From Candidatus Omnitrophota bacterium (GTDB lineage Bacteria; Omnitrophota; Gorgyraeia; Zapsychrales; Zapsychraceae), in the NCBI GenBank assembly GCA_015233115.1, contig JADFYJ010000001.1, positions 195,084-259,083 on the forward strand: a DNA stretch of 64,000 bases. The letters are read 5' to 3'. The translations under genes were made by a program, and so were the position numbers. Shown here one piece after another: positions 433-38,664 of this stretch; position 1 is the first letter of the stretch, and every line of letters begins with the position of its first letter. The notes below the pieces were generated by a model. It was not told the DNA's origin. It saw only the letters and a list, made by a program, of their open reading frames with translations, and searched no databases.

Positions 433-1299
433 ATGGACATTCCAGAAGGCATTTATAAAACTCATGGTGAGCTGTTTGATGCGGCTCACCATCTTGATCA
501 ATATTCCCACCAAGTGCTGGAAAAATTCAATCAAAAAACGATTGTGTTGTTCGATTTACGTCCTTGCCAGCGTATTTTCCTTTTTATCCTGACCCGCTCG
601 CTTAAAACTTATACGTCGATATTATACTTGTGCGAAAAGGGTTATGGTCAAGACGCGTCACCTTTATTAAGATCTTTGCTCGAAAATTTAATAACCGCCC
701 AATATATTTTACATAATCCTGCCATTTCCAATGACTTGGCAAAACGATTTGTGGCTTACAAGTGGGTCATATTAAAACGTCAGTTATCGGACCAAGAACA
801 GCATACTGAACGAACCAAAATAATTTTAGAAAAAGCTGAAGAATTCAAAAAAACATTTAAAGTGAAATCTGATCGTGCGCTCCTTACTTGGTCTGGAAAA
901 ACTGTCCGGGATATGGCAAAACAAATTGATAAAAAATGGCTTTATGAATATGAAACAATTTTTCGGTTGTGTTCCCGATTTTCTCATCCCAGTATTCTAG
1001 GCGATAATGAATACATGATTTTAGATGAAAAAAAATTGGTTTTCTCTTCATTGCCATCTGATATTGGGATAGTTCCTAATCTTCCTAATGCCGCGAAATA
1101 TTGTTTAGAATTTTTAATGATTATTAATGATTTATTTAAATTCAATTGTGAGAAAGATATCACTGCACATTCTCAAGAATTAGAGAAAATTCTTCACCTT
1201 CCTAAATATCATAACGGTTTTGCAGATACCCAACCTGCCGATTTAAAAGGTCCGTCGATCCGTGACTGCATTGTTACTTTCCAAACTCAAATAAACTAA
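433..1299 (+). CDS. Hypothetical protein, 288 aa, no recognisable domain.
   Basis: Long ORF with coding-like composition. The SD AAGGAG sits only 1-2 nt before the ATG, so the true start is uncertain. No motif recognised. Confidence 0.45.
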   Translation: MDIPEGIYKTHGELFDAAHHLDQYSHQVLEKFNQKTIVLFDLRPCQRIFLFILTRSLKTYTSILYLCEKGYGQDASPLLRSLLENLITAQYILHNPAISNDLAKRFVAYKWVILKRQLSDQEQHTERTKIILEKAEEFKKTFKVKSDRALLTWSGKTVRDMAKQIDKKWLYEYETIFRLCSRFSHPSILGDNEYMILDEKKLVFSSLPSDIGIVPNLPNAAKYCLEFLMIINDLFKFNCEKDITAHSQELEKILHLPKYHNGFADTQPADLKGPSIRDCIVTFQTQIN

Positions 1300-1707
1300 G
1301 TTGATCCTTTGTAAGACCATTGTCCCTCCGTAGAACAAAGTCAATATAAAGTGGAAAACGCCTATATTCAAAAAACTCTTTTTTTTCTATGATGGGAACA
1401 GTTCCGGTTTTGTCTGGGGGGGCAAACAACATCTACGCGGAGTTTTTTGATGTTTAAAATGTTTTTATTGCTCCCCAAAAACACATCAGCGCTCGACGGA
1501 AAATTTTTTCCGTTGATTGCTGTTTTTTTTTGCCGCGCACAAACATATATTTTAGAAATATTATTGTCAAAAGGAGGACATATAGAGCTCATGACTCAAA
1601 TAAAACATAAATTTGTTATGTTGTAAAAATGGGTTGATGCTGGTGAATATACCACCCCAGCGCCCTAATTCTAAAAATCAAATTAAATGGATAAAATGAG
1701 GTGCTAT

Positions 1708-4434
1708 ATGAGTAAAAAATTAACTTTTGTGTTTTCACTAGCAATTTTATTTGCTATGTACATTTCCGCCTTGCCGACGCCGGTTATGGCCGGAGGTGTT
1801 CCTTTATCTGATGGACAAATGGATCAAATTGCAGCAGGTGAATGGGTTTTGGCCTCTGCCGCTACTACCAAAAATTCATTAAAAGTTAAAGATCAGTCAC
1901 AAAATACGATTAAAGGTATCAGTAACGCAAACAGTGTGGATAGTGCTGTTAATGGACAGACCAACGTCAGTAATGCTGTCGAAGGAGCTGTAGATATTAC
2001 ACAAAGCAATAATACTTCGGTGACTAATCGTGCAAAGCCAAAAGATACTTTTAGTCTTGATGCCTCCCACAAAACAGTTACCGCCGTTAATGAGAAGGGC
2101 ACGACTACCTATAATAATGTGACCACTTCAAAAATCGATAATTCTAGTGCTGAAACTAAATCAGTTTCTGATACGGAATCGTTAAATACTTCTTCTACAG
2201 ATAAGGCGAGTTCTTCACTGAATGAAACTTCAAATAAAGCGGACAGCCTTAAGACTGGTTTTTCTGATGTTGAAGTCAGTGGTTCTTCAGCAAGCACTAA
2301 TTCTGCAAGTGCCAGCAATTTTTCAAAAGATAAAAGCGCAAGTTCAGCAGAAAATTTTGATTTAGATAAAGGTAAATCTGCTTCTAGCGAAGCTTCCCAA
2401 AGTGCTAATGATGCATCGAAAAATACCGCTAGTGCGAATAACAGCGCTTCGTCTTCTGATAAATTTAATTTAGACGGAAGTTTGAACGCAGGCACAACTA
2501 GCGCATCACAAAGTGCTTCGAAAAGTGCTGACAGTGTAGCAGCAATTTCCAGCAAATCTTCAAGTGATTCTGCTGCAGCCAATGAAAATGCCTCAACTTC
2601 GGATAAAGCAAATTTGGATGGTAGTTTAAGCGCCAGCGAAGGAAATGCTTCACAGAGTGCTGCTCAAAGTGCGAAAAGTCAATCAGCCAATTCCAGCAAC
2701 TCAGCTAGCAATAGTGCTGCAGCCAATGAAAATGCTTCATCTATGGATAAAGCTAATTTGGACGGCAGTTTGAGCGCTGGATCTGCAACGGCATCGCAGA
2801 GTGCTTCAAATAAATCAGACAGTGTAGCTGCTAATGCCAGCAAATCGTCTAGCGATACTGCTGCTGCAAACAACAATGCGACATCATCGGACAAAGCTAA
2901 TGTAGATGGAAGTTTGTCAGCATCGAAGTCAGCAGCCTCACAAAGCGCAGCGCAAAATGCGGATTCATCGGCATCGAACAATAGCGCAGCTGATTCATCT
3001 TCGAGCACAAAAGATGCCAGTCTGAACGTAGCAGCTACAGGAACAAGCAATAAAACTGCCTCATCTTCATCTGATGCTGTTTCCCAGGATGGTGTGAGCA
3101 CGTCTCAAAAGGATGCTAGCGCCAATCAATCCGCTGCACCTGGTTCAGTCACATCAGGGTCAACATCTTCAACAGCAGCCACAACTGGCAATGATGAAAA
3201 TTCGGGTACTGTTACTCAGAATTCTGCCACAGACACAGCCAATTCATCAAAAACGGTTGGTGTTAATGCCTCAGGCACACTTGACACGACTAAGCAATCA
3301 GGGTCGCAATCAGCTGATTCTGCAGCCGCAGATAGTTCTGCTTCAAATTCATCAGCAGCATCTAAAAATAGCAATCTTGATGCTTCATTAAGTGCAAGTA
3401 AAGACAAAGAAGCTTCTAGCGGAGCAGCATCATCATCCGCAAGTCAGGATGCAGCAAATGCTTCATTGACAAAAGATAAAACAGCGTCAGATTCAGCTTC
3501 AGCATCGGATAATAAGAATCTTGATGCTTCATTAAGTACAAGCAAAGATAAAGAAGCAACCAGCCAATCAGCTTCATCTTCAGCTGATCAATCTGCAGCT
3601 AATGCGGCATCGGCTAAAGATGCATCTGCTTCAAATTCAGCATCAGCATCTGAGAGTAAAAACCTAAATGCGACTTTAACCACGAGCAAAGATAAGGAAG
3701 CATCTAGCGCATCAGCATCATCTTCAGCTGATCAATCAGCAGCTAATGCCTCTTTAACTAAAGATAAATCTGCTTCAGATTCCGCGTCAGCTTCTGATTC
3801 GAAAAATTTGAATGCAGCGTTAACTGTTGGAAAAGATAAAGAAGCTGCTAACGCTTCAGCTTCTGCATCTGATCAAGAAGCATCTTCTGCAAGTCAATCG
3901 GCAGACAAAAGTGCTTCTCAAGATAGCTTATCTGTTACCAAAGGCAAAAGTGCAAACTCAGCTTTATCCGTAAAAGATACGAAGAGCGATAATTCTGCTT
4001 CTGCATCACAGGATAGCGCTTCAAAAAATGTTCAAGCAACGGTAGATGCTTCAAAAACTGATAATAAAGCGAAAACTGAAACATCAAGTTCAGAAAATGA
4101 CGCTTCTTTAGCAGCCTCGAAAACAACAACCAAAGCTGAAAATGAAACAAATACAAAAGTCAAAACTGATACTGTCGATCAAGGTGTGATCGTTGATTCA
4201 GCAAAAAATAATACGAATACTGAAGATGATTCAGTACAAATTGATGAGACTAAGACTGGTTCAGTGACCAATGAATTAGTTGTCTCAGGCGGTTCGCAGT
4301 CAGACATTATGGCAGTCAGCAACTTGAACGCAGTTGGTTCAGCTGTAGCCATACAAGCTAACGTTGCTAATTCCAGCACTGTATCTGGAAATATTTCACA
4401 ATCCAACGTGGCTACCGTAGCAAATGGTATTTAG
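1708..4434 (+). CDS. Exported Ser/Ala/Asp/Lys-rich repeat protein (putative fibre or surface-layer subunit). Its termini are paralogous to those of the 4517..5392 protein.
   Basis: ATG at 1708 preceded by GAGGTG; the ORF track start at 1687 is in frame. N-terminal hydrophobic signal-like segment, then LSDGQMDQIAAG. Interior made of two families of imperfect tandem repeats of about 48 and 40 aa. C-terminal N/V/S/Q-rich segment (AVSNLNAVGSAVAIQANVANSS...) aligns with the C-terminus of the next protein. Confidence 0.7.
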   Translation: MSKKLTFVFSLAILFAMYISALPTPVMAGGVPLSDGQMDQIAAGEWVLASAATTKNSLKVKDQSQNTIKGISNANSVDSAVNGQTNVSNAVEGAVDITQSNNTSVTNRAKPKDTFSLDASHKTVTAVNEKGTTTYNNVTTSKIDNSSAETKSVSDTESLNTSSTDKASSSLNETSNKADSLKTGFSDVEVSGSSASTNSASASNFSKDKSASSAENFDLDKGKSASSEASQSANDASKNTASANNSASSSDKFNLDGSLNAGTTSASQSASKSADSVAAISSKSSSDSAAANENASTSDKANLDGSLSASEGNASQSAAQSAKSQSANSSNSASNSAAANENASSMDKANLDGSLSAGSATASQSASNKSDSVAANASKSSSDTAAANNNATSSDKANVDGSLSASKSAASQSAAQNADSSASNNSAADSSSSTKDASLNVAATGTSNKTASSSSDAVSQDGVSTSQKDASANQSAAPGSVTSGSTSSTAATTGNDENSGTVTQNSATDTANSSKTVGVNASGTLDTTKQSGSQSADSAAADSSASNSSAASKNSNLDASLSASKDKEASSGAASSSASQDAANASLTKDKTASDSASASDNKNLDASLSTSKDKEATSQSASSSADQSAANAASAKDASASNSASASESKNLNATLTTSKDKEASSASASSSADQSAANASLTKDKSASDSASASDSKNLNAALTVGKDKEAANASASASDQEASSASQSADKSASQDSLSVTKGKSANSALSVKDTKSDNSASASQDSASKNVQATVDASKTDNKAKTETSSSENDASLAASKTTTKAENETNTKVKTDTVDQGVIVDSAKNNTNTEDDSVQIDETKTGSVTNELVVSGGSQSDIMAVSNLNAVGSAVAIQANVANSSTVSGNISQSNVATVANGI

Positions 4435-4450
4435 TTTTTTATGAGCTAAC

Positions 4451-4481
4451 GCAAAGGGGAAGTATTTTACTTCCCCTTTGC
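4451..4481 (+). terminator. Perfect 14-bp-stem hairpin (GCAAAGGGGAAGTA-TTT-TACTTCCCCTTTGC) between the two repeat-protein genes. Possible attenuator or partial terminator.
   Basis: Inverted repeat read directly. A T-run precedes it; only a weak A/T tract follows it on the + strand. Confidence 0.35.
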
Positions 4482-4516
4482 CGCGCTAAAAAATTTAGAA
4501 GAAAGGAGGTAATGGT

Positions 4517-5392
4517 ATGTATCAAAAAAAAATTTCACCATTGGTTATTTTATGTTTAATTTTAGGGCAAAATTCTTTAGCATTTGCCAATTATGCGGTT
4601 GAGATTTCTGATTATGAACTTGATCAAGTTCATGCCGGAGGATTAAATCTTAACTTTGACAATTTTTTAGGTTCTATGAATACCGCGGCTGATACAGCTA
4701 GCAAAAGTTCTGTAGTTGATATCAACACAACGGCTAAGAATTCGTTAGTGACAAATTCAAACAATTCCGGAGTAACTATTTTAGCGCCGACTCAGCCTAA
4801 TTCTCCTACAGCGCCAACGGCGCCAACGGCTCCAACGGCTCCAGCTGCTCTAGTAGCGCCAACAGTTCCGACTTTGCCGACAGCGCCGGTTTTACCCATA
4901 ACTCCAACTAATCCAGCTTCTCCATTAGTTCCGACAGCTCCAATGCCGGTAGATCTAAGTCTTGCTTCAAATCCAAGCCTGGTGAGTGGATCGATAGCCG
5001 CACCTGAAGCACCATCGACTCCTGCGGTACCAGCCTTACCAGTATCGCCAGCTTCACCTGCAACACCAACGGCTCCTGCCACATCTGCCGCTGTTGCTAA
5101 TACACCTATGACATTTGATGTGGTGGCAAAAACAGGTAACAATTTTCAAGTGGCGTACTCAACAAATAGTAATGTTCAGCCAACTGCCTTTTCATCAACC
5201 GGGGGTATGAACTCAGTGAATGTTTCCGATACGGCGCAACAAAACTTAAGCGCTATGGTTAATGTTAACGCGGCAGGAAGTATTGTTCCTGTTCAAATTA
5301 ATTTAACTGTTCTCATGAATTCAACTGTGCAAAATCTTACCAATTCGAATGATTTGAAATTGAGTAATTACACGACGTTCTCCCTTCAGTAA
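4517..5392 (+). CDS. Exported Pro/Thr/Ala-rich repeat protein, a paralogue of the 1708..4434 protein (second subunit).
   Basis: AGGAGG RBS. Signal peptide with AFA cleavage-like site, then ISDYELDQVHAGG. PTAPTAPTAP low-complexity core. C-terminal N/V-rich segment (AMVNVNAAGSIVPVQINLT...) similar to the upstream protein. Confidence 0.7.
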   Translation: MYQKKISPLVILCLILGQNSLAFANYAVEISDYELDQVHAGGLNLNFDNFLGSMNTAADTASKSSVVDINTTAKNSLVTNSNNSGVTILAPTQPNSPTAPTAPTAPTAPAALVAPTVPTLPTAPVLPITPTNPASPLVPTAPMPVDLSLASNPSLVSGSIAAPEAPSTPAVPALPVSPASPATPTAPATSAAVANTPMTFDVVAKTGNNFQVAYSTNSNVQPTAFSSTGGMNSVNVSDTAQQNLSAMVNVNAAGSIVPVQINLTVLMNSTVQNLTNSNDLKLSNYTTFSLQ

Positions 5393-5429
5393 CGAACCTG
5401 TGGGGAAGGCAATATGATTTTTTATAGTT

Positions 5430-6119
5430 ATGAATAAAAAAGTTCTAACCACAATTTTGTTTTGTTTTCTTTCTTTAGTGTTCGCTAATTATTGTTTTGC
5501 GTCAGTTTTTTTCGTTGGAGGGATGCGATTTAATAAAAAGTTAATGCCGTTACGTGAAATTAAAAGAGAACACGTGGTTATGCAGAATTTTGATTTTAGC
5601 TGTGGAGCTGCGGGCTTGTCGACATTATTGAACTATTACCTTGGCAACCCAATCTCTGAAAGTGTCATTATTAAAACTCTTTTAAAGACTGTTCCGTTAC
5701 AAAAAATACGTCAACGGCGCGGGTTTTCCCTCTATGATTTAAAAAATTTCGCAAAATCAAAAGGATACATCGCGACAGGCTATAAAATGGATATTGATTT
5801 TTTAAAAAAACTTCATAAACCGGTTTTAGTTCCGATTAAATTTAGGAATTTCCGCCATTTTGTTATTATCAAAGCTGTAGTAGCTGATCATGTTCTTATA
5901 GCAGATCCAGCTGCCGGAAATACTTCAATGACGATAGATCAATTTAATAAACTTTGGATAGACGGCATATCTTTGCTCGTAGAAGATCCGCGAAAAAAAT
6001 CTAGTGGTTTTCAGACGAATTTCGACGGAAAAGATTTGTTAATAACAGATCACAAAATGATTGGACGGATTCTAAATCCTGACCTGATTCGCACAACAGT
6101 TTATCCGGGAGAATTTTAA
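5430..6119 (+). CDS. Standalone peptidase C39-like domain protein (papain-fold cysteine peptidase of the double-glycine-leader processing family) with an N-terminal signal/TM segment.
   Basis: The Cys motif FDFSCGAAGLSTLLNYY and the downstream HFVIIKAV...DPAAG (His/Asp) resemble C39 catalytic motifs. There are no ABC transporter domains. It is 229 aa. Confidence 0.6.
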   Translation: MNKKVLTTILFCFLSLVFANYCFASVFFVGGMRFNKKLMPLREIKREHVVMQNFDFSCGAAGLSTLLNYYLGNPISESVIIKTLLKTVPLQKIRQRRGFSLYDLKNFAKSKGYIATGYKMDIDFLKKLHKPVLVPIKFRNFRHFVIIKAVVADHVLIADPAAGNTSMTIDQFNKLWIDGISLLVEDPRKKSSGFQTNFDGKDLLITDHKMIGRILNPDLIRTTVYPGEF

Positions 6120-6274
6120 ACTTATTGTAAGGAGGTCCCGCTACGGCCGCTAGGACGCGGCCTTGCTTGAACAGCAAGCTTCGCGTTGCTCAGCTTCGCG
6201 GGATAAATTCGTGCGGCTGACTTGATGTCGCGATAAATCGCTCCATAAGTCAGGCACTCATTATAGGAGACAAC
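6120..6274 (+). other. GC-rich, highly self-complementary intergenic island. Candidate structured 5' leader or small RNA.
   Basis: Nested inverted repeats: CCCGC...GCGGG, GCTTG-AACAG-CAAGC, CTGACTT...AAGTCAG and GCGAT-AA-ATCGC. Local GC is far above the window average. Confidence 0.3.
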
Positions 6275-7564
6275 ATGGTTAAGCTTAAACTCAACGTTGG
6301 GAATACAGTTTTAATTATTTTATGCCTGTTTTTTGTTCTGGGAGAAGCAAAAATTACTAACCGGTTGGCTGAGAATAAGTACCAAAAACTGGCTCAAACT
6401 TTAAAAGCTGACATTTTGCGGGAATTGAAAAATAATATTAAAAATGAGGTATGGCAGGAAATACTACATAATCACAAAAAAAATTTTATCCAAGAAAAGG
6501 CAAATCTAGCGGATAGTGATATTTTTACTCTTAATCAGGGGAATTTGAACGATGAAGATTTAGATCAATATTTTGCCGGTAATGAAACGCCGAAGGCTTT
6601 AGGAATTAATTCTGGATATACAAAATTAGCGTTACAAAAATCAGCAGACGAACCTTCTTCGTCAACTCTTCAGACCGGAACAGGTGAAATTTCCGGCGGA
6701 AATAAACGTGAGTTACCCGCTTCACTTCAAAAAACTTTTGAAGAACGCGGCAGCATGTTACTTCCCAAAGGAAAATTTCAATTAGAACCAAATTTTACTT
6801 ACGCTCATTTTTCGTCCAACCGTATTAACATTCAAGGCTTCAGTATCCTTCCGGTACTTGTGATAGGAGATATCTCTGTCCAAGAAGTGAAACGGGATGT
6901 GTTTATTAATACATATTCTTTACGATATGGACTTTTAAATAATTTACAGGCTGAAATTAAGGTTCCAGGACGGTTTGAACATGATTTAATCAGCACTTCC
7001 ACAACGAGTGAGACGACCCGTAATCATGGAGGACTAGGTGATGTGGAATTAGGACTTAGCCGTCAAATTGGTTGGGAGCACGGAGTTTGGCCTGATTTGA
7101 TTGCCGCCTTTGCTGTAAAAACACCTTCAGGATTAGAACCATATAATCATTCGATTGCTCTCGGTACAGGGCATTGGGCAGCTCGTGGATCGTTGATCGC
7201 GGCAAAATCCAGTGACCCAGCCGTGGTTTTTGGATGCCTCAGTTACACATATAATTTTGCCAGAAACGGGATTGAAAATTACGGTGATGTTAAGCCCGGA
7301 GATACTATTGCGTACAGTTTAGGAACAGCTGTGGCATTAAGTTACAAAGTCGCGCTTAATTTAGCTTTTGACCAAAGCTTAACTACTAAGATGAATAGAA
7401 ATGGGTCACCGGTGGTTGATTCATTCATGAACTCCGCAGACTTAAAAGCTGGATTAAATTGGGTTATTGATGATAAAAAAGCCGTGGATTTTTCCGTCAG
7501 TATGGGTTTAACCAAAGATTCGCCGGATTTTACAGTTGAAATAAGAATACCAATATCATTCTAA
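6275..7564 (+). CDS. Putative outer-membrane beta-barrel protein with an N-terminal coiled-coil-like periplasmic region.
   Basis: Signal-like N-terminus. K/E/L-rich heptad-like stretch at residues 30-90. C-terminal alternating amphipathic segments ending in ...IRIPISF, a terminal aromatic residue typical of OM barrels. It is 429 aa. Confidence 0.5.
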   Translation: MVKLKLNVGNTVLIILCLFFVLGEAKITNRLAENKYQKLAQTLKADILRELKNNIKNEVWQEILHNHKKNFIQEKANLADSDIFTLNQGNLNDEDLDQYFAGNETPKALGINSGYTKLALQKSADEPSSSTLQTGTGEISGGNKRELPASLQKTFEERGSMLLPKGKFQLEPNFTYAHFSSNRINIQGFSILPVLVIGDISVQEVKRDVFINTYSLRYGLLNNLQAEIKVPGRFEHDLISTSTTSETTRNHGGLGDVELGLSRQIGWEHGVWPDLIAAFAVKTPSGLEPYNHSIALGTGHWAARGSLIAAKSSDPAVVFGCLSYTYNFARNGIENYGDVKPGDTIAYSLGTAVALSYKVALNLAFDQSLTTKMNRNGSPVVDSFMNSADLKAGLNWVIDDKKAVDFSVSMGLTKDSPDFTVEIRIPISF

Positions 7565-7603: not shown

Positions 7604-8689
7604 ATGATTTTTGATACCTTTCAATTTAAAAATTTAAAATTGTCGAATCGTTTGGTGCGATCCGCTATTCATGCGGCTGACGCGACAGATGATGGTCTGG
7701 CCACCGTAGAGTCGGCCAACATTTTGTTGGCAGTCGCGGACAATGGCCCTGGGTTGATCATGACCGGCCACGCGTTTGTTTCTAAAGATGGAAAAGGGAA
7801 TCGAAAGCAGCTTGGTGTCTACTCTGATGTTTGTATTCATGGATTAACTGATGTTGCAAAAAATATTCACCAAAAAACCACCTCTAAAATATTTCTGCAA
7901 TTAGCTCATGCCGGCGCTCAAACTTCAGAAGGCATTACAGGAGTAACGCCTATTGGTCCGTCTGAAATAAAAGAAAATTCCATTACACTTTGTCGCTCCA
8001 TGAATGAAGACGACATTAATCGTATTATTTTGGCATTTACACAAGCCGCGCGAAGAGCCTGGGAAGCAGGCTTTGACGGTATCCAAATACATGCCGCGCA
8101 TGGATATTTGCTTTCCGAATTTTTGTCGCCGCATTTTAACCAACGCGGAGATCAATTTGGCGGGTCCAATTTAAACCGTTCACGGTTTTTATGTCTGATT
8201 GTTGAACAGATCCGTAATTTTGTTAGTAAAAATTATCCGATTATTGTTAAAATCAATTCAGAAGATTTTTGGAACGATGGCCTGCAAGTCAAAGATATGA
8301 TTGAAATCGTCGGTTATCTGATTAAAGCCGGCATAGACGGAATTGAACTGAGCGGAGGAACTAAAGATTCAGATCCTGCTATTGAACGCAAGCACGATCC
8401 CCAATCTGTGGAAGAACAATTTTATTACCGCGATGCTGCCCGTTTGTTAAGATCAAAATATTCCATTCCTTTAATTGCTATGGGCGGCATACGTGAATTG
8501 TCTGTGGCCGAATCAATCATCCAGAATAATGAGGCAGATTGGGTTTCTATGGGCAGACCTTTTGTTTGTGAGCCGCATTTAGTTAAGCGTTGGCAAGAGG
8601 GAGACACCTCCCGCGCAAAATGCACCTCATGCAACGCATGTTTCCGGCCTTTGGTCGTGGGAAAGTTGTTAAAATGCCTAAAAAAATAA
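7604..8689 (+). CDS. NADH:flavin oxidoreductase, Old Yellow Enzyme family.
   Basis: HAAHGYLLSEFLSPHFNQRGDQFGGSNLNRSRF is the OYE active-site signature. TIM-barrel length. Confidence 0.85.
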   Translation: MIFDTFQFKNLKLSNRLVRSAIHAADATDDGLATVESANILLAVADNGPGLIMTGHAFVSKDGKGNRKQLGVYSDVCIHGLTDVAKNIHQKTTSKIFLQLAHAGAQTSEGITGVTPIGPSEIKENSITLCRSMNEDDINRIILAFTQAARRAWEAGFDGIQIHAAHGYLLSEFLSPHFNQRGDQFGGSNLNRSRFLCLIVEQIRNFVSKNYPIIVKINSEDFWNDGLQVKDMIEIVGYLIKAGIDGIELSGGTKDSDPAIERKHDPQSVEEQFYYRDAARLLRSKYSIPLIAMGGIRELSVAESIIQNNEADWVSMGRPFVCEPHLVKRWQEGDTSRAKCTSCNACFRPLVVGKLLKCLKK

Positions 8690-10098
8690 AATCTCTTCCC
8701 AAACCTGGTGGAATCATGGAAATGTTGGCTGTTGCCTTGCCTATGTTGGTATCCATGACCTGTGATACGATCATGATTTTTACGGATCGTTTATTTCTTT
8801 CCAAATTAGAACCGGAAATGATGAATGCCTCAATGGGAGGGGGTTTAACGGTTTTTATGATGATGTCATTTTTTGTGGGGCTAACCGGTTATTCGACAGC
8901 ATTAGTGGCCCAATATCTGGGAGCAGGTCAGAAAAAAAATTGTCCGATGGTTATTTCACAGGCCGTCATTGTGTCCTGCGCGGCTTATCTGCCGATTTTA
9001 TTTTGCCGTCCCTTAGCTCATCAGATGTTTCGTCTTATGGGAGTATCCAGCCAACAGTTATTTTATCAAAATGTATATTTTGATATTCTGCTTTATGGCG
9101 CGATCATCACCCTTTTAAGGAATAGTTTAAGCTGTTTTTTCTCAGGTATAGGCCGTACCCGTATCGTTATGATAGCGTCATTTACGGCCATGCTTGTGAA
9201 CGCGATTCTTAATTATATTTTAATTTTTGGAAAACTAGGCTTACCCGCCATGGGCATACGCGGCGCGGCTTTGGGCACGCTGATGGGAGGAGCCAGCGGA
9301 TTTTTTATTTTAGTCTTCGCGTATTTCAGTAAAAATAATAGCGCGGAATTTGATCTGGCCCATTCATTTAAGTTTGACTTTTCTATCATGAAAAAATTGC
9401 TGCGTTTTGGTTCATCACCTGGGCTGGAATTGTTTTTAAATATTTTAGCTTTTAATGCCATGGTCATGGTTTTTCACGCGCAGGGATTAGTGACAGCCAC
9501 AGCTTCAACGATTATGTTTAATTGGGACATGGTGTCATTTGTTCCTTTGTTAGGTATCGAAATTGCGGTGACCAGCATGGTAGGGCGATACATGGGAGCC
9601 CGCAACCCATACATTGCTAACCAGTCTGCCATGTCCGGCCTTAAAGTCGGTCTGGTATTTTCCACGATTATTCTGATTCTTTTTGTAGGATTTCCTCACT
9701 TGCTGATTAATGTTTTCCGTCCGGCTGGATCAAATGTAATTTTCATCAAATCTATACCTATGGCTTTGTATATGATCAGGGTCGCGTCGCTTTATATTAT
9801 GGTAGAAGCATTATTTATTGTATTTATAGGCGCGTTAAGAGGAGCGGGAGATACTTTCTGGGCGATGTGTATATCTGTGACTTTACATTGGGCCATGGTT
9901 TTAGTTGTAGCTGTCGCGTTAAAAGTATTCAAACAAACCCCGGAAGCGGCATGGACGTATATGGTGGTTATTTTTATAGGATTCTCATTTATCGTTTATT
10001 GGCGCTACCGCATCGGCCATTGGCGCAATATTAAAGTCGTTGAAATCGAGCCGGTTCCGATTATCAGCAATGGTTTTCATGGAACGATTGATTTATAA
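8674..10098 (+). CDS. MATE family efflux transporter.
   Basis: A 12-TM hydrophobic profile with a MATE-like N-terminus (MLAVALPMLVSMTCDTIMIFTDRLFLSKL). The ORF-track start at 8590 overlaps the upstream gene; the in-frame ATG at 8674 or 8716 is more likely. Confidence 0.75.
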   Translation: MPKKIKSLPKPGGIMEMLAVALPMLVSMTCDTIMIFTDRLFLSKLEPEMMNASMGGGLTVFMMMSFFVGLTGYSTALVAQYLGAGQKKNCPMVISQAVIVSCAAYLPILFCRPLAHQMFRLMGVSSQQLFYQNVYFDILLYGAIITLLRNSLSCFFSGIGRTRIVMIASFTAMLVNAILNYILIFGKLGLPAMGIRGAALGTLMGGASGFFILVFAYFSKNNSAEFDLAHSFKFDFSIMKKLLRFGSSPGLELFLNILAFNAMVMVFHAQGLVTATASTIMFNWDMVSFVPLLGIEIAVTSMVGRYMGARNPYIANQSAMSGLKVGLVFSTIILILFVGFPHLLINVFRPAGSNVIFIKSIPMALYMIRVASLYIMVEALFIVFIGALRGAGDTFWAMCISVTLHWAMVLVVAVALKVFKQTPEAAWTYMVVIFIGFSFIVYWRYRIGHWRNIKVVEIEPVPIISNGFHGTIDL

Positions 10099-11317: not shown

Positions 11318-12481
11318 ATGATAACAAATCAACTATGTTTGGTTGCCATTCTTTTTGCCATCGAAGCAGTGATATTATTTATTTCCAGCCGGAAGTCTTT
11401 TGAAAAATATTTTCATTTTATCCCGCCGGTGTTTTGGATTTATTTTTTGCCTATGATTTTATCCACAACTGGATTGATCGACGCGAAAAGCCCGGTTTAT
11501 AAAATGATTGCCGAGAATTTATTGCCAATGAGTTTGGTTATTTTATTGTTATCATCCAATATCCGGGCCATTCTGCGTTTAGGGCCCACCGCATTGATGA
11601 TGATGCTGGCTGGAAGTTTAGGTATCATGGTAGGAATACCGATTGTTTTTTGGTCGGTTAAACATTTTGTAGGTTCACAAATGTGGGCGGGATTTGGGGC
11701 GTTATCCGCGTCTTGGATCGGCGGAAGCGCGAACATGATTGCTGTAAAAGAAGCTTTGGGTACGCCGGATTCCGTTTTTTCACCGATGGTCATTGTTGAT
11801 ACAGTTGTACCGTATGTTTGGATGGGCATTTTAGTCGCCTTGGTCACATTACAGCCAGTTTATGATAAATGGAATAAATCCCGACGGGATGTTCTGGATG
11901 AATTGAATGCCAATGTTGAAAAAGGCGGACTACTAAAAAAACAATTCACTTTTTGGGGAACCATGCTGATTCTTTTAATCGGCCTCGTTGGAATTTATAT
12001 TTCCCGCTATATATCCGCGTATTTGCCTAATGTCAAAGACATGATTTCGAATTACACGTGGGTTATTATTGTCGCGTCTATGATAGGAATCGGTTTATCA
12101 TTTACGCCGTGCCGAAAACTGGAACAATATCAAGCATCCCGTTTAGGGTATTTCATTTTATACTTTGTTCTGACCACGATTGGAGCAAAGGCTAGCTTGT
12201 CTAACATGAGTGCAACCGCAATTTTAATTGGAGCAGGATTTGTCGCGGTCTTAATTCACGCTGGTTTTTTATTAGTCGCAGCCAAAATTTTACGCGCGCC
12301 TATGTTTTTAGTCGCGACTGCCAGTCAGGCGAATGTGGGAGGGGTAGCGTCGGCACCTATAATTGCCGCCTTATATGAACCTGAACTTGCGTCAGTGGGT
12401 TTATTACTGGCGATATTTGGGAATATTATTGGAACATATCTTGGCATTTTAACCGGATATATTTGTCACATGATTTCATGA
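11318..12481 (+). CDS. Polytopic membrane protein, possibly DUF819-like.
   Basis: About 10 predicted hydrophobic helices. No catalytic motif recognised. Confidence 0.45.
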   Translation: MITNQLCLVAILFAIEAVILFISSRKSFEKYFHFIPPVFWIYFLPMILSTTGLIDAKSPVYKMIAENLLPMSLVILLLSSNIRAILRLGPTALMMMLAGSLGIMVGIPIVFWSVKHFVGSQMWAGFGALSASWIGGSANMIAVKEALGTPDSVFSPMVIVDTVVPYVWMGILVALVTLQPVYDKWNKSRRDVLDELNANVEKGGLLKKQFTFWGTMLILLIGLVGIYISRYISAYLPNVKDMISNYTWVIIVASMIGIGLSFTPCRKLEQYQASRLGYFILYFVLTTIGAKASLSNMSATAILIGAGFVAVLIHAGFLLVAAKILRAPMFLVATASQANVGGVASAPIIAALYEPELASVGLLLAIFGNIIGTYLGILTGYICHMIS

Positions 12482-12495
12482 GTTTAAGGCATAAG

Positions 12496-13860
12496 ATGAA
12501 AAAATTGATAACAATGTTTATTACTGCTTGTTGCATCTGTTGGCTTTGTAAAGGTACCACCGCTGATGAGCAAATCATGCATTATGCGGCTCCCACAATT
12601 TTGCCGCATGTTCGCCCGGAAATGCAAACAGCTGGTTTTTGGGTTAGCCGCAATCCTCATGCTGATGAAATTATTATTCCTGCCCGAATAATACCCGTTT
12701 TTAATAAAACCATTCAAGAAAATTTAAAGCTGACCCGCAATATGACTGAATTCCCATCTACGGTGTCAGGCGTTATTTATTTTGATAAACTGCAAAATAA
12801 ATTATCCAGCCTAAGAAATAATGGATATTTTACGAGTGAGGGTATTATCGCTGACCAAAAATTTTTTAATTTAATCGAAAATAATATGAATTTAAAATTG
12901 ATTGGAAAAATACTTCCTGTTAAATTTGGGTTTATTCTTTTTAACGCGGATCAGCGGCAATTACCAACCTTACAACATCTTTACGTCACAGCAGGCAACG
13001 TTGATTTTGATGAACTGCAAGAAAACGCTCTGGATGTTGGAACGCCAGTTGAGGTCATTCATCAAACCAAAGATGGAGAGTGGTATTATGTTCTTGGTCC
13101 TGCGAGTGAGGGCTGGATCAAGGCGGATCTTATAGGCTTATGCGAGCAATATGTATTTCAACAATACTTGAGCCATAAGCAGTTTTTAGTTGTTACCCGG
13201 GCTAAGATTGATATTTTTATCGATGATAAACTAACCCAATTTTATGGTTCCGCACGCATGGGTTCGCGTTTTTTCGTTAAAGATGACAGCGATCCAGAAA
13301 TCTTTCAAATTTATTTACCATCCCGTAAAAGGGAAGAATTTGAAATTTCAAAGGCCTATATTTCAAGACAAGGTGTTCATATTGGGTATTTAGACCATAC
13401 TGCTCGTCATGTGATCCAACAGGCTTTTGAAATGTTAAATACTCCTTATGGCTGGGGCGGCATGAACAACGAACAGGACTGCTCACAATTTATTCAAGAA
13501 ATTTACGCGACCATGGGCATTCAATTGCCACGGAATTCGTCCGATCAAGCCCAAATTGGCAAAGAATTAGCCGCATTTACCGATGAAACAAAAGATTCCA
13601 AAAAATTAGATGTCATTTTACACAGCGCTTCACCTGGAAATAGCATGTTTTATATGAAAGGTCATATTATTTTATTTTTGGGTGTTGTCGATGATGTGCC
13701 TTTTGCCATCCATGATATTTGGGCCTACCGCGAACGGATTGGAAGAGAAGATGTCGCGCGCGTGTTAAACCGGGTAGCGGTGACAGATCTTTCTTTGGGA
13801 ACTGGGTCGAGAAAAGGCTCATTACTAAGCCGTATTTTGCAAATTCGTATGATCCAATAA
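12496..13860 (+). CDS. NlpC/P60 family peptidoglycan hydrolase with an SH3-like domain.
   Basis: C-terminal NTPYGWGGMNNEQDCSQFIQEIY (Cys) and GHIILFLG (His) match NlpC/P60. There is a central SH3b-like segment. Start taken at the ATG at 12496 (MKKLITM..., signal-like). Confidence 0.75.
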   Translation: MKKLITMFITACCICWLCKGTTADEQIMHYAAPTILPHVRPEMQTAGFWVSRNPHADEIIIPARIIPVFNKTIQENLKLTRNMTEFPSTVSGVIYFDKLQNKLSSLRNNGYFTSEGIIADQKFFNLIENNMNLKLIGKILPVKFGFILFNADQRQLPTLQHLYVTAGNVDFDELQENALDVGTPVEVIHQTKDGEWYYVLGPASEGWIKADLIGLCEQYVFQQYLSHKQFLVVTRAKIDIFIDDKLTQFYGSARMGSRFFVKDDSDPEIFQIYLPSRKREEFEISKAYISRQGVHIGYLDHTARHVIQQAFEMLNTPYGWGGMNNEQDCSQFIQEIYATMGIQLPRNSSDQAQIGKELAAFTDETKDSKKLDVILHSASPGNSMFYMKGHIILFLGVVDDVPFAIHDIWAYRERIGREDVARVLNRVAVTDLSLGTGSRKGSLLSRILQIRMIQ

Positions 13861-15939: not shown

Positions 15940-15951
15940 GGAGATTTTATT

Positions 15952-17082: not shown

Positions 17083-17097
17083 TAGAGAAATAATTTT

Positions 17098-30628: not shown

Positions 30629-30629
30629 C

Positions 30630-38468: not shown

Positions 38469-38664
38469 TCCTATATCTTTAGGGCCCCGAAGGATATATT
38501 TTAAGCCGAATTTCTGACCTTCAAGGAAGCGGGAGATACCAGCAGGGGGGTGAATCTCATGTAACATGAGAGGGATAGCTGCCATCCTAACCCATCAACT
38601 AATCTCGCAGGCTAGGCAGTATTTTTTTATTAGTTCAAGCTTTAAATATTTTTTGTGGGGGATA

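What the first reader, a model, noticed from the sequence alone, without database searches (positions are those of the whole stretch)
1687..7564. Candidate fibre / functional-amyloid-like export locus: two paralogous exported repeat proteins, a standalone C39 peptidase, and a coiled-coil/beta-barrel outer-membrane protein
The locus holds four co-directional genes.
- A 909-aa Ser/Ala-rich exported repeat protein and a 291-aa Pro/Thr/Ala-rich exported repeat protein. The pair share conserved N-terminal (LSDGQMDQIAAG / ISDYELDQVHAGG) and C-terminal (N/V/S/Q-rich, curlin-like) segments, with hypervariable low-complexity middles.
- A 229-aa secreted C39-type cysteine peptidase with no ABC transporter moiety.
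- A 429-aa protein with a predicted periplasmic coiled-coil and a C-terminal beta-barrel ending in Phe.
The gene sizes and order parallel the Pseudomonas Fap system: FapB/FapC subunits, the C39 peptidase FapD, and the coiled-coil-plus-barrel secretin FapF. Curli (CsgA/B plus the CsgG pore) is a similar parallel. No sequence-level homology is claimed here. In an AT-rich uncultivated diderm this could be an undescribed surface-fibre or amyloid secretion system.
Basis: partly seen in the sequence, partly recalled or inferred. Interest (0 to 1): 0.85.

Follow-up and report, generated by a model that had tools for sequence, protein, structure and literature searches.

The report
Fap-like export cassette with leader-tagged cargo
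An uncultivated Omnitrophota bacterium carries a conserved four-gene cassette whose protease and outer-membrane pore are relatives of the Pseudomonas Fap amyloid-export machinery. Its two secreted repeat proteins, and the pore itself, carry a bacteriocin-style 'double-glycine' tag just after the ordinary export signal, which suggests what the poorly understood periplasmic protease of such systems recognises.

Summary
The four genes are real and form a conserved cassette. P3 (5430-6119) is a Sec-exported stand-alone C39 peptidase with invariant Gln/Cys/His/Asp. P4 (6275-7564) is a FapF-type barrel (PDB FapF E 1e-25; model TM about 0.8) with an N-terminal helix, disordered linker and plug-position helix. 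The cargo (P1, 1708-4434; P2, 4517-5392) is not detectably related to FapB/C/E or curlin. It is an unannotated family built from a Sec signal peptide, a 12-residue motif, a hypervariable disordered spacer and one or two copies of a ~53-aa N/V/S/Q-rich module. Relatives carry 1 to at least 15 tandem modules. The motif L-S-D-x-E-[LM]-D-x-[IV]-x-A-G matches the canonical C39 double-glycine leader (LSxxELxxIxGG). It occurs three times in the 64-kb window (P1, P2 and the P4 linker). It occurs 33 times in 524 kb of related loci, always in cargo or in the pore. FapE-like proteins of true Fap operons carry the same pattern. Most likely mechanism: Sec export, periplasmic C39 recognition and cleavage of the leader, passage through the barrel, then surface assembly through the modules. 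Amyloid character is untested. Verdict: new variant of a known kind.

The parts
433..1299 (+). DUF5677 gene (288 aa, no signal peptide). Conserved upstream neighbour of the cassette. Role unknown.
   Evidence: Pfam DUF5677 8e-25. Present upstream in 14 related loci. No PDB relative.
1493..1516 (+). Terminator-like hairpin followed by a T-run, between the DUF5677 gene and P1.
   Evidence: Consensus scan only. Suggests that P1-P4 are a separate transcription unit.
1708..4434 (+). P1, large cargo protein (908 aa from Met at 1708; the ORF opens at 1687).
   Evidence: ORF. GAGG ribosome-binding site before 1708. No Pfam or NCBIfam family. P1-like genes occupy the same position in related loci.
1708..1791 (+). 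P1 Sec-type signal peptide, MSKKLTFVFSLAILFAMYISALPTPVMA.
   Evidence: By inspection: KK n-region, hydrophobic core, V-M-A. No signal-peptide predictor was available.
1792..1839 (+). P1 double-glycine-type leader, GGVPLSDGQMDQIAAG. Predicted cleavage before EWVLAS.
   Evidence: Strict motif at 1804-1839. Leader HMM 20.9 bits. Register -12 L, -11 S, -7 M, -4 I, -2 A, -1 G.
1870..2028 (+). P1 N-terminal module (53 aa; ...SQNTIKGISNANSVDSAVNGQTNVSN...).
   Evidence: hhalign against the P1 C-module: 99.1 %, E 8e-19. Coordinates checked.
2458..3860 (+). P1 Ser/Ala-rich disordered spacer with two 144-bp (48-aa) tandem-repeat arrays (2458-2916 and 3330-3860).
   Evidence: TRF. Composition S 28 %, A 20 %, hydrophobic 8 %.
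4267..4425 (+). P1 C-terminal module (53 aa; ...SQSDIMAVSNLNAVGSAVAIQANVAN...).
   Evidence: hhalign. Conserved at the C-terminus of all P1-like proteins.
4517..5392 (+). P2, small cargo protein (291 aa).
   Evidence: ORF with AGGAGG ribosome-binding site. P2-like family: 18 word-search hits without names and 243 representatives in the exhaustive search. AF2 model disordered, pLDDT 49.
4517..4588 (+). P2 Sec-type signal peptide, MYQKKISPLVILCLILGQNSLAFA.
   Evidence: By inspection.
4589..4642 (+). P2 double-glycine-type leader, NYAVEISDYELDQVHAG(G). Followed by the conserved LNLNFDNFLGS.
   Evidence: Strict motif at 4604-4639. HMM 24.1 bits. D32, D36, A40 invariant and G42 nearly invariant in the family. 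AF2 places a short helix at residues 32-38.
4769..5116 (+). P2 Pro/Thr/Ala-rich spacer.
   Evidence: P 25 %, A 21 %, T 16 %. 9-bp repeat at 4803-4843. Length hypervariable in the family.
5210..5389 (+). P2 C-terminal module (...AQQNLSAMVNVNAAGSIVPVQINLTVLMNSTV...).
   Evidence: hhalign against the P1 C-module: 93.7 %, E 1.9e-7. N249, N251, A253, G254, S255 (nearly) invariant.
5430..6119 (+). P3, periplasmic stand-alone C39 cysteine peptidase (229 aa), FapD/FilB-type. Signal peptide 5430-5501. Q52 at 5583-5585, C58 at 5601-5603, H143 at 5856-5858, D159 at 5904-5906.
   Evidence: Pfam Peptidase_C39 9.6e-22. NCBIfam FilB 2e-36 and FapD 5e-33. Aligned to PCAT1. Q/C/H/D invariant in 24 homologues. 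Coordinates checked.
6275..7564 (+). P4, FapF-type outer-membrane translocator (429 aa). Signal peptide 6275-6349, amphipathic helix 6350-6502, disordered linker, plug-position helix 6719-6745, beta-barrel 6776-7561 ending ISF.
   Evidence: NCBIfam FapF 1.3e-40. PDB FapF 5o65 1.2e-25. AF2 pLDDT 77. Foldseek top hits are all FapF, E 3e-21, TM about 0.8.
6545..6580 (+). Leader-like motif LNDEDLDQYFAG in the P4 linker, between the helix and the barrel.
   Evidence: Third and last strict-motif hit in the window. Conserved in most FapF-like homologues by inspection of A1, about 28 of 35. HMM 19.3 bits. AF2 places a short helix at residues 94-100.

Best explanation
This is a FapD/FapF-type two-step secretion cassette with a cargo family of its own.

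Proposed mechanism:
1. P1, P2, the peptidase P3 and the pore P4 all enter the periplasm through Sec. Signal peptides were judged by inspection.
2. In the periplasm, the C39 peptidase P3 recognises the amphipathic motif L-S-D-x-E-[LM]-D-x-[IV]-x-A-G that directly follows the signal peptide of P1 and P2. This motif is the double-glycine leader of bacteriocin-type C39 substrates moved to the periplasmic side. P3 most likely cleaves after it, leaving conserved new N-termini (EWV... in P1; (G)LNLNFDxFLG... in P2).
3. The same motif in the disordered linker of P4 either tethers the peptidase under the pore as a built-in pseudo-substrate, or is itself cut to gate the pore.
4. The unfolded cargo then passes through the FapF-type barrel.
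5. Outside the cell, the ~53-aa N/V/S/Q-rich modules (two in P1, one in P2) associate with each other. This would build a surface fibre or matrix in which the long Ser/Ala-rich and Pro/Thr-rich spacers form a hydrated, species-variable coat.

Shown: homology of P3 and P4 to FapD and FapF; conserved catalytic residues; conserved synteny; specificity and register of the motif; module repeats.
Inferred: cleavage, the route through P4, and surface assembly.
For: - P3 is a C39 peptidase. Q52, C58, H143 and D159 are invariant in 24 homologues. The 12 N-termini printed all have a Sec-type signal peptide.
- P4 matches FapF by sequence and by fold, with helix, linker and plug-position helix.
- P4 is 39 % identical to the FapF of a Thermodesulfobacteriota operon that also encodes FapB, FapC, FapD and FapE relatives.
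- The cassette order P1-like, P2-like, C39, FapF-like recurs. 22 of 23 loci with at least 5.5 kb of upstream sequence have C39 next to the barrel.
- The strict motif occurs 3 times in six frames of the window, all in this locus.
- It occurs 33 times in 1.05 million six-frame codons of window plus 29 loci. All are on the cassette strand: 27 at codon 26-64 of cargo ORFs, 6 in FapF-like ORFs, none elsewhere.
- A leader HMM gives 48 hits of at least 7 bits among 3,207 ORFs. All are in cargo or FapF-like ORFs, and they include non-training variants.
- Motif register across 28 sequences: -12 hydrophobic 28/28, -11 S 17, -8 E 17, -7 L/M 28/28, -4 I/V/L 26/28, -2 A/G 27/28, -1 G 22/28. This equals LSXXELXXIXGG, which BAGEL lists with C39 protease (PMC1538908). 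It also fits the -4/-7/-12 amphipathic-helix rule, with cleavage after GG, GA or GS (PMC10885120).
- AF2 puts a short helix exactly on the motif in P2 and in P4.
- FapE-like proteins of true Fap operons carry the same pattern: ELEKLRGG|Y and LSNTQLDELRG|RY in Thermodesulfobacteriota, LADGELAHLRG|RY in Aeromonas. This fits the published loss of the FapE N-terminus in Pseudomonas (PMC5557850).
- P2 is predicted disordered as a monomer, as expected for cargo threaded through a narrow barrel.
- Relatives have 1 to at least 15 tandem modules with a period of about 61-65 aa in the same cassette type. This marks the module as the structural unit.
Against: - No cleavage has been observed.
- Position -2 is Ala rather than the near-universal Gly of canonical leaders.
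- In several P2-like proteins the residue after that Ala is Q, E or H (YAQG, YAEG, YAHG). The exact scissile bond is therefore uncertain, and the register may differ between P1 and P2.
- Signal peptides were judged by eye.
- Leader anchors in the non-Omnitrophota sequences were chosen by eye.
- The leader HMM was trained on the regex hits.
- The P4 helix lacks the R-h-x-x-h-E trimerisation motif of Pseudomonas FapF, and its oligomeric state was not modelled.
- The cargo shows no similarity to FapB, FapC, FapE, curlin or any solved fibre subunit. Surface assembly therefore rests on architecture alone.
- One FapF-like gene (L020) has no adjacent C39.
Confidence: 0.6

Rival explanations
1. The cassette makes a true functional amyloid. 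The modules of P1 and P2 stack into a cross-beta (curli- or Fap-like) fibre, P2 acts as nucleator or cap, and the spacers loop out. This agrees with the best explanation on secretion but commits to an amyloid end product.
For: - The machinery is homologous to the Fap amyloid exporter.
- The modules are N/Q/S/V-rich and conserved.
- Relatives carry 10 to at least 15 imperfect tandem modules behind one leader. This is the architecture of CsgA and FapC-type subunits.
- The monomer is predicted disordered.
Against: - No similarity to FapB, FapC, FapE or curlin repeats or to any solved fibril.
- In the window's own proteins, only about 106 of 908 residues (P1) and about 60 of 291 residues (P2) are module. 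The rest is hydrophilic or Pro-rich spacer, which cannot form an amyloid core.
- No structural model of stacked modules could be made.
Confidence: 0.3
2. The motif is a docking or secretion signal that is bound but not cut. It would recruit cargo to the peptidase (acting as a chaperone, like the C39-like domains of RTX exporters) or to the periplasmic part of the pore. Any proteolysis by P3 would act on something else, for example only on the P4 linker.
For: - Non-cleaving C39-like domains exist in type 1 systems (discussed in PMC5557850).
- -2 is Ala, and some P2-like proteins lack a small residue at the canonical -1.
- The pore itself carries the motif, which fits a docking role.
Against: - Gln/Cys/His/Asp are invariant in all 24 homologues, whereas C39-like chaperone domains have lost the catalytic Cys.
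- FapD needs its Cys for secretion (PMC5557850).
- The residues just after the motif are strongly conserved (EWV; GLNxxFDxFLG), as expected for a functional new N-terminus.
Confidence: 0.15
3. P4 is an ordinary COG4313/Phenol_MetA_deg-type uptake channel for hydrophobic compounds, and its position next to the peptidase and the repeat proteins has no shared function.
For: Pfam assigns P4 only to Phenol_MetA_deg. The COG4313 channel 4rl8 is the next-best structural match.
Against: - FapF chains are clearly better matches than 4rl8 (E 3e-21 against 8e-13).
- P4 has the FapF-like N-terminal helix, linker and plug-position helix.
- C39 genes have not been reported next to COG4313 channels (PMC6173800).
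- The link to C39 and cargo is conserved in 22 of 23 loci.
- P4 carries the cargo's own motif.
Confidence: 0.05
4. The locus is a bacteriocin- or signalling-peptide-type system, in which the double-glycine leader marks toxins or pheromones.
For: The leader consensus is that of class II bacteriocins and competence peptides. One P2-like protein has a weak hit to a bacteriocin family (E 0.24).
Against: - The leader follows a Sec signal peptide.
- There is no ABC transporter in or next to the cassette.
- The products are 291-908-aa low-complexity proteins with conserved repeat modules, not short peptides.
- No immunity or sensor-kinase genes are conserved in the cassette.
Confidence: 0.03

Closest known systems
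Fap system of Pseudomonas (fapABCDEF: FapB/FapC amyloid subunits, FapE, periplasmic C39 peptidase FapD, trimeric outer-membrane translocator FapF)
   Same: - A Sec-exported stand-alone C39 peptidase with catalytic Cys/His, homologous to FapD.
- A barrel homologous to FapF in sequence and fold, with N-terminal helix, disordered linker and plug-position helix.
- Peptidase and barrel genes adjacent, preceded by Sec-exported, disordered, repeat-bearing cargo.
- FapE-like proteins of Fap operons carry the same leader pattern.
   Different: - The cargo is unrelated to FapB, FapC or FapE by HMM and profile tests.
- No FapA or FapE gene. The order is cargo-cargo-D-F.
- Both cargo proteins and the pore carry the leader.
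- Cargo has long hydrophilic or Pro-rich spacers.
- Scores fall far below the NCBIfam equivalog cut-offs (114 against 330; 139.5 against 700), although Aeromonas Fap proteins also fall below them.
- No R-h-x-x-h-E motif in the helix.
Fil locus of Acinetobacter baumannii (FilA-FilF, 'putative pilus system'; FilB is a C39 peptidase and FilC a FapF-type barrel; functionally uncharacterised)
   Same: P3's best NCBIfam hit is FilB (2e-36), and P4 also hits FilC (2e-18). The general layout is cargo, C39, barrel. FilA begins with a signal peptide followed by MDDAALSAATG, a weak resemblance to the leader.
   Different: Scores are far below the cut-offs (125.8 against 475; 66.9 against 630). The cargo does not hit FilA. 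No FilD, FilE or FilF genes follow; the downstream gene is an Old Yellow Enzyme-type flavin oxidoreductase. P4 is only 25 % identical to FilC.
Peptidase-containing ABC transporters (PCAT/AMS; e.g. PCAT1, ComA, LahT) and their double-glycine leader peptides
   Same: The C39 fold and Gln/Cys/His/Asp set are shared. The substrate motif has the same register as LSxxELxxIxGG, with hydrophobic residues at -4, -7 and -12.
   Different: The peptidase is a free periplasmic protein, not a cytoplasmic domain of an ABC exporter. The leader sits behind a Sec signal peptide instead of at the extreme N-terminus. -2 is Ala. The substrates are large repeat proteins. The outer-membrane step uses a FapF-type barrel rather than TolC.
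Curli (CsgA/CsgB subunits, CsgG pore, CsgE/F)
   Same: Analogy only: Sec-exported disordered subunits with N/Q/S-rich imperfect repeats, a major and a minor subunit, and a dedicated outer-membrane channel.
   Different: No Curlin_rpt hit. No CsgG, CsgE or CsgF. The pore family differs and there is a protease step.
COG4313 / Phenol_MetA_deg hydrophobic-compound channels (e.g. Pput2725, PDB 4rl8)
   Same: Same barrel superfamily (Pfam PF13557 1.6e-9; 4rl8 TM 0.71). The position of FapF's PTG motif is kept as P-S-G in P4.
   Different: P4 has the FapF-type periplasmic extension and leader-like motif. It is linked to a C39 peptidase, which has not been reported for COG4313 channels.

Membership tests
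Fap functional-amyloid system | FapF-type 12-strand outer-membrane barrel with an N-terminal plug helix | tested here: met
   phmmer against PDB FapF 5o65: E 1.2e-25 over residues 151-428. AF2 barrel 168-429 with helix 149-157. Foldseek top 18 hits are all FapF, E down to 3e-21, TM about 0.8.
Fap functional-amyloid system | Periplasmic trimeric coiled coil with R-h-x-x-h-E motif and Q-layers at the FapF N-terminus (PMC6173795) | tested here: inconclusive
   A long amphipathic helix, residues 26-76, is modelled with pLDDT about 70-84. The hydrophobic spacing is not a clean heptad. The R-h-x-x-h-E motif is absent, but it is also absent in Aeromonas FapF. The oligomeric state could not be modelled.
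Fap functional-amyloid system | Periplasmic C39 peptidase (FapD) with catalytic Cys and His | tested here: met
   NCBIfam FapD 5.3e-33. Sec-type signal peptide. Q52, C58, H143, D159 invariant.
Fap functional-amyloid system | NCBIfam equivalog cut-offs for FapD (330 bits) and FapF (700 bits) | tested here: not met
   114.2 and 139.5 bits. Caveat: Aeromonas FapD (249) and FapF (371) also fall below these cut-offs.
Fap functional-amyloid system | FapB/FapC subunits with imperfect Fap repeats | tested here: not met
   No FapB or FapC hit for P1, P2 or 16 P2-like proteins, even at E up to 10. hhalign of cargo profiles and modules against a validated FapC sequence gives probability about 0.1 %. The same models do detect FapB and FapC in Thermodesulfobacteriota and Aeromonas.
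Fap functional-amyloid system | FapE and FapA genes in the operon | tested here: not met
   No FapE hit, and no gene lies between C39 and the barrel. No additional small gene in the cassette.
Fap functional-amyloid system | Product is an amyloid (ThT or Congo-red binding, SDS-insoluble, cross-beta) | not testable with these tools
   Needs expression and biophysics.
Fil system (A. baumannii FilA-F) | FilB and FilC above the NCBIfam cut-offs (475 and 630 bits) | tested here: not met
   125.8 and 66.9 bits. True FilC scores 681 and FilA 328.
Fil system (A. baumannii FilA-F) | FilA cargo and FilD/E/F genes | tested here: not met
   No FilA hit for P1 or P2. The gene downstream of P4 is a flavin oxidoreductase.
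PCAT / double-glycine leader export | C39 domain with Gln/Cys/His/Asp | tested here: met
   Aligned to PCAT1 8vp3 and 4ry2, E about 1e-9. Residues invariant.
PCAT / double-glycine leader export | C39 fused to an ABC transporter, acting in the cytoplasm on Sec-independent precursors | tested here: not met
   P3 is 229 aa with a signal peptide and no transmembrane or nucleotide-binding domains. Cargo has Sec-type signal peptides ahead of the leader.
PCAT / double-glycine leader export | Leader consensus LSxxELxxIxGG, hydrophobic at -4, -7, -12, cleavage after GG, GA or GS | tested here: inconclusive
   The register matches at -12, -11, -8, -7, -4 and -1. However, -2 is Ala in the Omnitrophota cargo, and some P2-like proteins have Q, E or H at -1. 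Cleavage was not testable.
Curli | Curlin repeats; CsgG/E/F secretion proteins | tested here: not met
   No Curlin_rpt or Csg hits at E up to 1. No such genes in the cassette.
COG4313 / Phenol_MetA_deg channels | Pfam PF13557 above the gathering score | tested here: met
   38.6 bits against 22. However, FapF itself belongs to this superfamily, and FapF is the closer match.

The most novel reading that the evidence does not exclude
The cassette may expose a general, so far undescribed rule for FapD/FapF-type secretion across several phyla. Cargo would carry a bipartite N-terminal signal: a Sec signal peptide followed by a double-glycine-type leader. A free periplasmic C39 peptidase would read and remove the leader to license passage through the FapF-type barrel. 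A copy of the leader in the pore's own linker would hold the peptidase at the channel entrance. On this reading the long-sought FapD substrate in classical Fap systems is the equivalent motif in FapE. The Omnitrophota module proteins (1 to at least 15 repeats) would be a new family of secreted fibre subunits.
Probability: 0.4. Interest if true: 0.8.

Novelty: new variant of a known kind. Interest (0 to 1): 0.66.

Why it matters
FapD has been known since 2017 to be an essential, catalytically active periplasmic C39 peptidase. Yet its substrate and recognition sequence were still described as unknown in 2018, and a 2024 review still calls it only 'a protease'. Pseudomonas Fap proteins were reported to lack canonical C39 sites.

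This cassette offers an unusually clear case. A near-canonical double-glycine leader sits at a fixed place behind the Sec signal peptide of every cargo protein and in the pore linker. The same pattern appears in FapE-like proteins of true Fap operons. That turns the open question into simple experiments: peptide cleavage assays and N-terminal sequencing.

It also shows that the double-glycine leader and C39 pairing, regarded as a cytoplasmic, Sec-independent device of ABC exporters, has probably been reused on the periplasmic side of a two-step pathway.

Finally, it identifies an unannotated family of surface proteins in Omnitrophota, a phylum of uncultivated and partly host-dependent bacteria whose cell-surface biology is largely unknown. 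These proteins have hypervariable spacers.

Tried and rejected
1. **Curlin or Fap identity of the cargo: rejected.** Pfam and NCBIfam gave nothing for P1 and P2. Sixteen P2-like proteins scanned at E up to 10 gave only low-complexity hits to Gram-positive surface proteins. hhalign against FapC gave probability about 0.1 %. The FapC sequence was written from memory and accepted only after it scored 283.9 bits against the NCBIfam FapC model, whose cut-off is 195. Profile searches against all PDB sequences hit only Pro-rich linkers.
2. **My impression that 'VNVNAAGS' resembles the FapC 'GVNVAAG' motif** did not survive the profile test. hhalign aligned only the four residues AAGS.
3. **Structure prediction of P2** gave a disordered model (pLDDT 49). 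It is uninformative about assembly.
4. **Crude heptad scoring of the P4 helix** was indecisive.
5. **Exact-sequence look-up of P4** found no contig.
6. **Homology search with the P1 N-terminus** returned one hit because of the word pre-filter.
7. **Search for a Pseudomonas fap operon in the annotated collections failed**. Aeromonas was used instead.
8. **The Vibrio plasmid locus** was not informative.
9. **Minus-strand ORFs inside P1** (for example 2109-2582 and 2679-3101) are L/A/E-rich mirror images of the Ser/Ala repeats, with no support as genes.
10. **Promoter scan:** fewer sites than in shuffles, so no use was made of it.
11. **Co-directionality as evidence of an operon: rejected**, because the whole window is co-directional.

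Full report
**Observation**

The region 1687-7564 holds four ORFs on the + strand: 915, 291, 229 and 429 aa. Ribosome-binding sites support the starts of P2 (AGGAGG) and P4 (AGGAG). For P1 they favour the second in-frame Met at 1708 (GAGG upstream), which gives 908 aa. The gaps between genes are 82, 37 and 155 bp. A terminator-like hairpin at 1493-1516 lies upstream of P1.

Co-directionality is not evidence here, because all 36 ORFs of at least 180 aa listed in the rest of the window are also on the + strand. The window comes from a Candidatus Omnitrophica MAG: an identical protein in NCBI carries locus tag HQL26_00950 on a 269-kb contig. The rest of the window is ordinary diderm chromosome, including RND pumps with OEP proteins, a TonB-dependent receptor and tryptophan genes.

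**The machinery**

P3 is a Peptidase_C39 protein (Pfam 9.6e-22).
- Its best NCBIfam hits are the stand-alone peptidases FilB (2e-36) and FapD (5e-33), both below the curated cut-offs.
- It aligns with the peptidase domain of PCAT1 across the oxyanion Gln, Cys, His and Asp.
- Q52, C58, H143 and D159 are invariant in 24 homologues from related loci. The 12 N-termini printed all start with a Sec-type signal peptide.

P4 hits NCBIfam FapF (1.3e-40) and FilC (2e-18), and the crystal structure of FapF at 1.2e-25 over residues 151-428.
- An AlphaFold2 model (35-sequence alignment, pLDDT 77) shows a long helix to residue 76 and a disordered stretch of about 70 residues. A short helix follows at 149-157, where FapF has its plug, and then a confident barrel at 168-429.
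- Foldseek ranks eighteen FapF chains first (E down to 3e-21, target-normalised TM about 0.8), ahead of the COG4313 channel 4rl8.
- The oligomeric state of the helix could not be tested. The R-h-x-x-h-E motif described for Pseudomonas FapF (PMC6173795) is absent, but it is also absent from Aeromonas FapF.

The NCBIfam cut-offs are evidently tuned to Pseudomonas, since the Aeromonas fapBCDEF proteins also fall below them. P4 is 39 % identical to the FapF of a Thermodesulfatator MAG whose operon also encodes recognisable FapB, FapC, FapD and FapE relatives. It is 26 % identical to Aeromonas FapF and 25 % to FilC.

**Synteny**

A scan of one genome per species found 29 loci with a relative of P4. 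Most are Omnitrophota, with a few Thermodesulfobacteriota and one Nitrospinota. Of the 23 loci with at least 5.5 kb of upstream sequence, 22 have the C39 gene next to the barrel gene.

In the Omnitrophota loci the order is:
1. DUF5677 gene
2. often a PocR/AraC regulator
3. P1-like gene
4. P2-like gene
5. C39 gene
6. FapF-like gene

. Some loci have two P1-like copies (L009, L015).

**The cargo**

P1 and P2 have no Pfam or NCBIfam family. Family alignments show the following layouts.
- **P1-like:** signal peptide, VALSDxEMDEIAAG|EWV, an N-terminal module (...SQxELxAVSNANAVDSAVAVQTNV...), a Ser/Ala-rich spacer, and a C-terminal module (...AVSNLNAVGSAVAVQTNVAN...NG[LF]-end).
- **P2-like:** signal peptide, AVxLSDxELDQVYA[GQEH]G|LNxxFDxFLG, a Pro/Thr-rich spacer, and one C-terminal module (...AQQxLSALVNVNAAGSxVPVQLNLTVLINSTV...).

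Profile comparisons gave these results:

| Comparison | Probability | E-value |
|---|---|---|
| P1 N-module vs P1 C-module | 99 % | 8e-19 |
| P1 C-module vs P2 C-module | 94 % | 1.9e-7 |
| Signal peptide + leader, P1 vs P2 | 96 % | 4.5e-9 |

The spacers are hydrophilic (P1: S 28 %, A 20 %, 8 % hydrophobic; two 48-aa repeat arrays) or Pro-rich (P2). Their length varies several-fold between species.

The cargo is not related to Fap subunits or to any solved structure.
- Sixteen P2-like proteins gave no FapB, FapC or FapE hit even at E up to 10.
- hhalign against FapC gave probability about 0.1 %. The FapC sequence was written from memory and validated at 283.9 bits against a cut-off of 195.
- Profile searches of the PDB found nothing real.

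AlphaFold2 predicts P2 to be disordered as a monomer (pLDDT 49).

An exhaustive profile search of 1.84 billion cluster representatives found only 243 P2-like proteins at E up to 1e-3. Among them:
- Minimal ~135-aa forms with a signal peptide, a leader and one module.
- A 1283-aa protein with a leader and at least 15 tandem modules at a period of about 61-65 aa.

The locus of that 1283-aa protein again reads cargo (at least 15 modules), cargo (at least 10 modules), minimal cargo (130 aa), C39, FapF-type barrel. The module is therefore the structural repeat of the family. The window's P1 is a two-module version with a long spacer.

**The motif**

The pattern [LIVM][STN]D..[LIVMF]D.[LIVMFY]..G occurs three times in all six frames of the 64-kb window: in P1, in P2 and in the linker of P4 (LNDEDLDQYFAG).

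In 524 kb (1.05 million six-frame codons) of window plus loci it occurs 33 times, all on the cassette strand. Of these, 27 lie at codon 26-64 of cargo ORFs upstream of the C39 gene and 6 lie at codon 108-150 of FapF-like ORFs. None lies elsewhere.

A 16-residue HMM gives 48 hits of at least 7 bits among 3,207 ORFs. All are in cargo or FapF-like ORFs, and they include variants not used for training. The best off-target hit scores 6.4 bits. By inspection, about 28 of 35 aligned FapF-like proteins carry [LIV]SDxELDx[YV]VA[GS] in the linker.

With the Gly set as -1, the positions read as follows across 28 sequences:

| Position | Residues | Count |
|---|---|---|
| -12 | hydrophobic | 28/28 |
| -11 | Ser | 17 |
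| -10 | Asp | 21 |
| -8 | Glu | 17 |
| -7 | Leu/Met | 28/28 |
| -4 | Ile/Val/Leu | 26/28 |
| -2 | Ala/Gly | 27/28 |
| -1 | Gly | 22/28 |

This is the double-glycine leader consensus LSXXELXXIXGG that BAGEL associates with C39 proteases (PMC1538908). It also fits the rule that C39 domains bind an amphipathic helix with hydrophobic residues at -4, -7, -12 (and -15) and cut after GG, GA or GS (PMC10885120). AlphaFold2 places a short helix exactly on the motif in both P2 (32-38) and P4 (94-100).

Caveats:
- -2 is Ala in Omnitrophota cargo.
- Several P2-like proteins read YAQG, YAEG or YAHG, so the scissile bond is not fixed.
- Anchors outside Omnitrophota were chosen by eye.

**Reach beyond this phylum**

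- **Thermodesulfobacteriota Fap operons:** the FapE-like protein and a small first-gene product carry ...ELEKLRGG|Y...LQEIRGG|Y, LSNTQLDELRG|RY and LDENVLDKIRGG|G after a signal peptide.
- **Aeromonas FapE:** reads LADGELAHLRG|RY.
- **Cupriavidus:** a 162-aa protein just upstream of its C39 reads KLDDVRGG|AE.
- **Nitrospinota:** one locus has four or five small leader-bearing proteins upstream of C39 and the barrel.

Rouse et al. showed that FapD is periplasmic and needs its Cys for FapC secretion. They stated that Fap proteins lack canonical C39 sites and that the FapD target is unclear. They also observed that the first ~70 residues of FapE, and peptides from the FapF linker, are missing from cells (PMC5557850). 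Later reviews still list the substrate as undetermined or call FapD only 'a protease'. The 2018 review noted co-localised fapD/fapF homologues in five further phyla, without describing cargo. Full-text searches found no description of such cassettes with non-Fap cargo, nor of this system in Omnitrophota. There, C39 domains have been discussed only as parts of giant proteins. Subscription-only papers are not covered by that library.

**Mechanism proposed**

- **Shown:** homology of the peptidase and the pore to FapD and FapF; an intact catalytic set; conserved linkage; a cargo family with a bipartite N-terminus and repeat modules; the motif's specificity and canonical register.
- **Inferred:** after Sec export, P3 binds the leader helix of P1 and P2 and cuts after it. 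The leader-like segment of P4 tethers the peptidase at the pore, or is cut to gate it. The unfolded cargo passes through P4. The modules then associate outside the cell into a fibre or matrix decorated by hydrated, fast-evolving spacers.

I put 0.6 on this as a whole. By component: about 0.95 on 'FapD/FapF-type cassette', about 0.7 on 'the motif is the C39 recognition site', and about 0.3 on 'the product is an amyloid'.

**Classification**

This is not a member of the Fap system in the strict sense: there are no FapB, FapC, FapE or FapA, and scores are below the equivalog cut-offs. It is not a member of the Fil system either. It works like Fap at the level of machinery and belongs to the same broader FapD/FapF class. 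I rate it a new variant of a known kind, with a cargo family and a recognition signal that I could not find described.

Noticed in passing
window 38494-38628 (+): A c-di-AMP riboswitch (Rfam RF00379, 69 bits against a gathering score of 38) lies directly upstream of, and overlaps the annotated start of, a BacA/UppP undecaprenyl-diphosphatase ORF (38566-39438; the Pfam match starts at residue 39). An amino-acid permease follows at 39513-41492.
   Followed up: no
window 433-1299 (+): A cytoplasmic DUF5677 protein is conserved immediately upstream of the cassette in 14 related loci. It has no solved relative and no obvious role; a regulator or cytoplasmic accessory factor is possible.
   Followed up: partly
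L010 3667-4548, L011 11270-12100, L019 4010-4846, L021 4628-5497, L012 11382-12272: PocR-sensor/AraC-type regulators flank the cassette in many Omnitrophota loci, either between the DUF5677 gene and P1 or after the barrel gene. None is adjacent in this window.
   Followed up: partly
window 1-64000: Every ORF of at least 180 aa listed for 12-64 kb is on the + strand, the large genes in the first 12 kb are too, and cumulative GC skew rises over the first 14 kb. This is an unusually strict strand bias.
   Followed up: no
L034 8001-17930 (GCA_030765235.1): A related cassette carries cargo with at least 15 and at least 10 tandem modules plus a 130-aa minimal cargo. Its FapF-type barrel is called as two genes, and its N-terminal part is a Pur_ac_phosph_N (FN3-like) domain instead of a helix. 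It sits beside a gene for a protein of more than 4,000 aa and polysaccharide-export genes. PF16656 was also listed for several FapF-like hits.
   Followed up: partly
L026 5428-8228 (Nitrospinota MAG): Four small leader-bearing proteins (LSDEELGAVTGG, LSDGDLDSITAA, LSDQELDTIYGA, MSDTELDTVFAG) lie upstream of a 347-aa C39 and a FapF-like barrel. A fifth candidate (KPLSDLQLDD) lies downstream at 11365-12030. The cargo is unrelated to P1 and P2.
   Followed up: partly
L010 5101-7845: The leader of this P1-like protein has a partial internal duplication (LTDAELDEIAAGDEEIAAGEW). It may be a natural variant useful for mapping the cleavage site.
   Followed up: no
L031 7868-8707 (A. baumannii VB1190): The FilB C39 gene appears split into two ORFs (7868-8305 and 8315-8707) in this strain. 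This could be a frameshift or a pseudogene.
   Followed up: no
L020 9236-10783: This is the only FapF-like gene with ample upstream sequence but no adjacent C39 or leader-bearing cargo. It lies next to a 2270-aa protein and nucleotidyltransferase/HEPN-like small genes.
   Followed up: no
window 42671-44425 (+): A 584-aa ORF with no Pfam family at E up to 1e-5 lies just upstream of a chorismate-binding/aminotransferase IV fusion gene.
   Followed up: no
L030 (NZ_AP026896.1) and L032 (NC_007974.2): Some records in the plasmid collection are chromosome-sized replicons: the 4.9-Mb Aeromonas caviae 'plasmid' and the 2.6-Mb Cupriavidus record. Their gene tables are almost empty, so all gene calls there are my own ORF calls.
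   Followed up: no
window 12463-13860 (+): An SH3b + NlpC/P60 cell-wall hydrolase gene, followed by two RND efflux operons with their own OEP genes (14380-20142 and 29315-33731).
   Followed up: no
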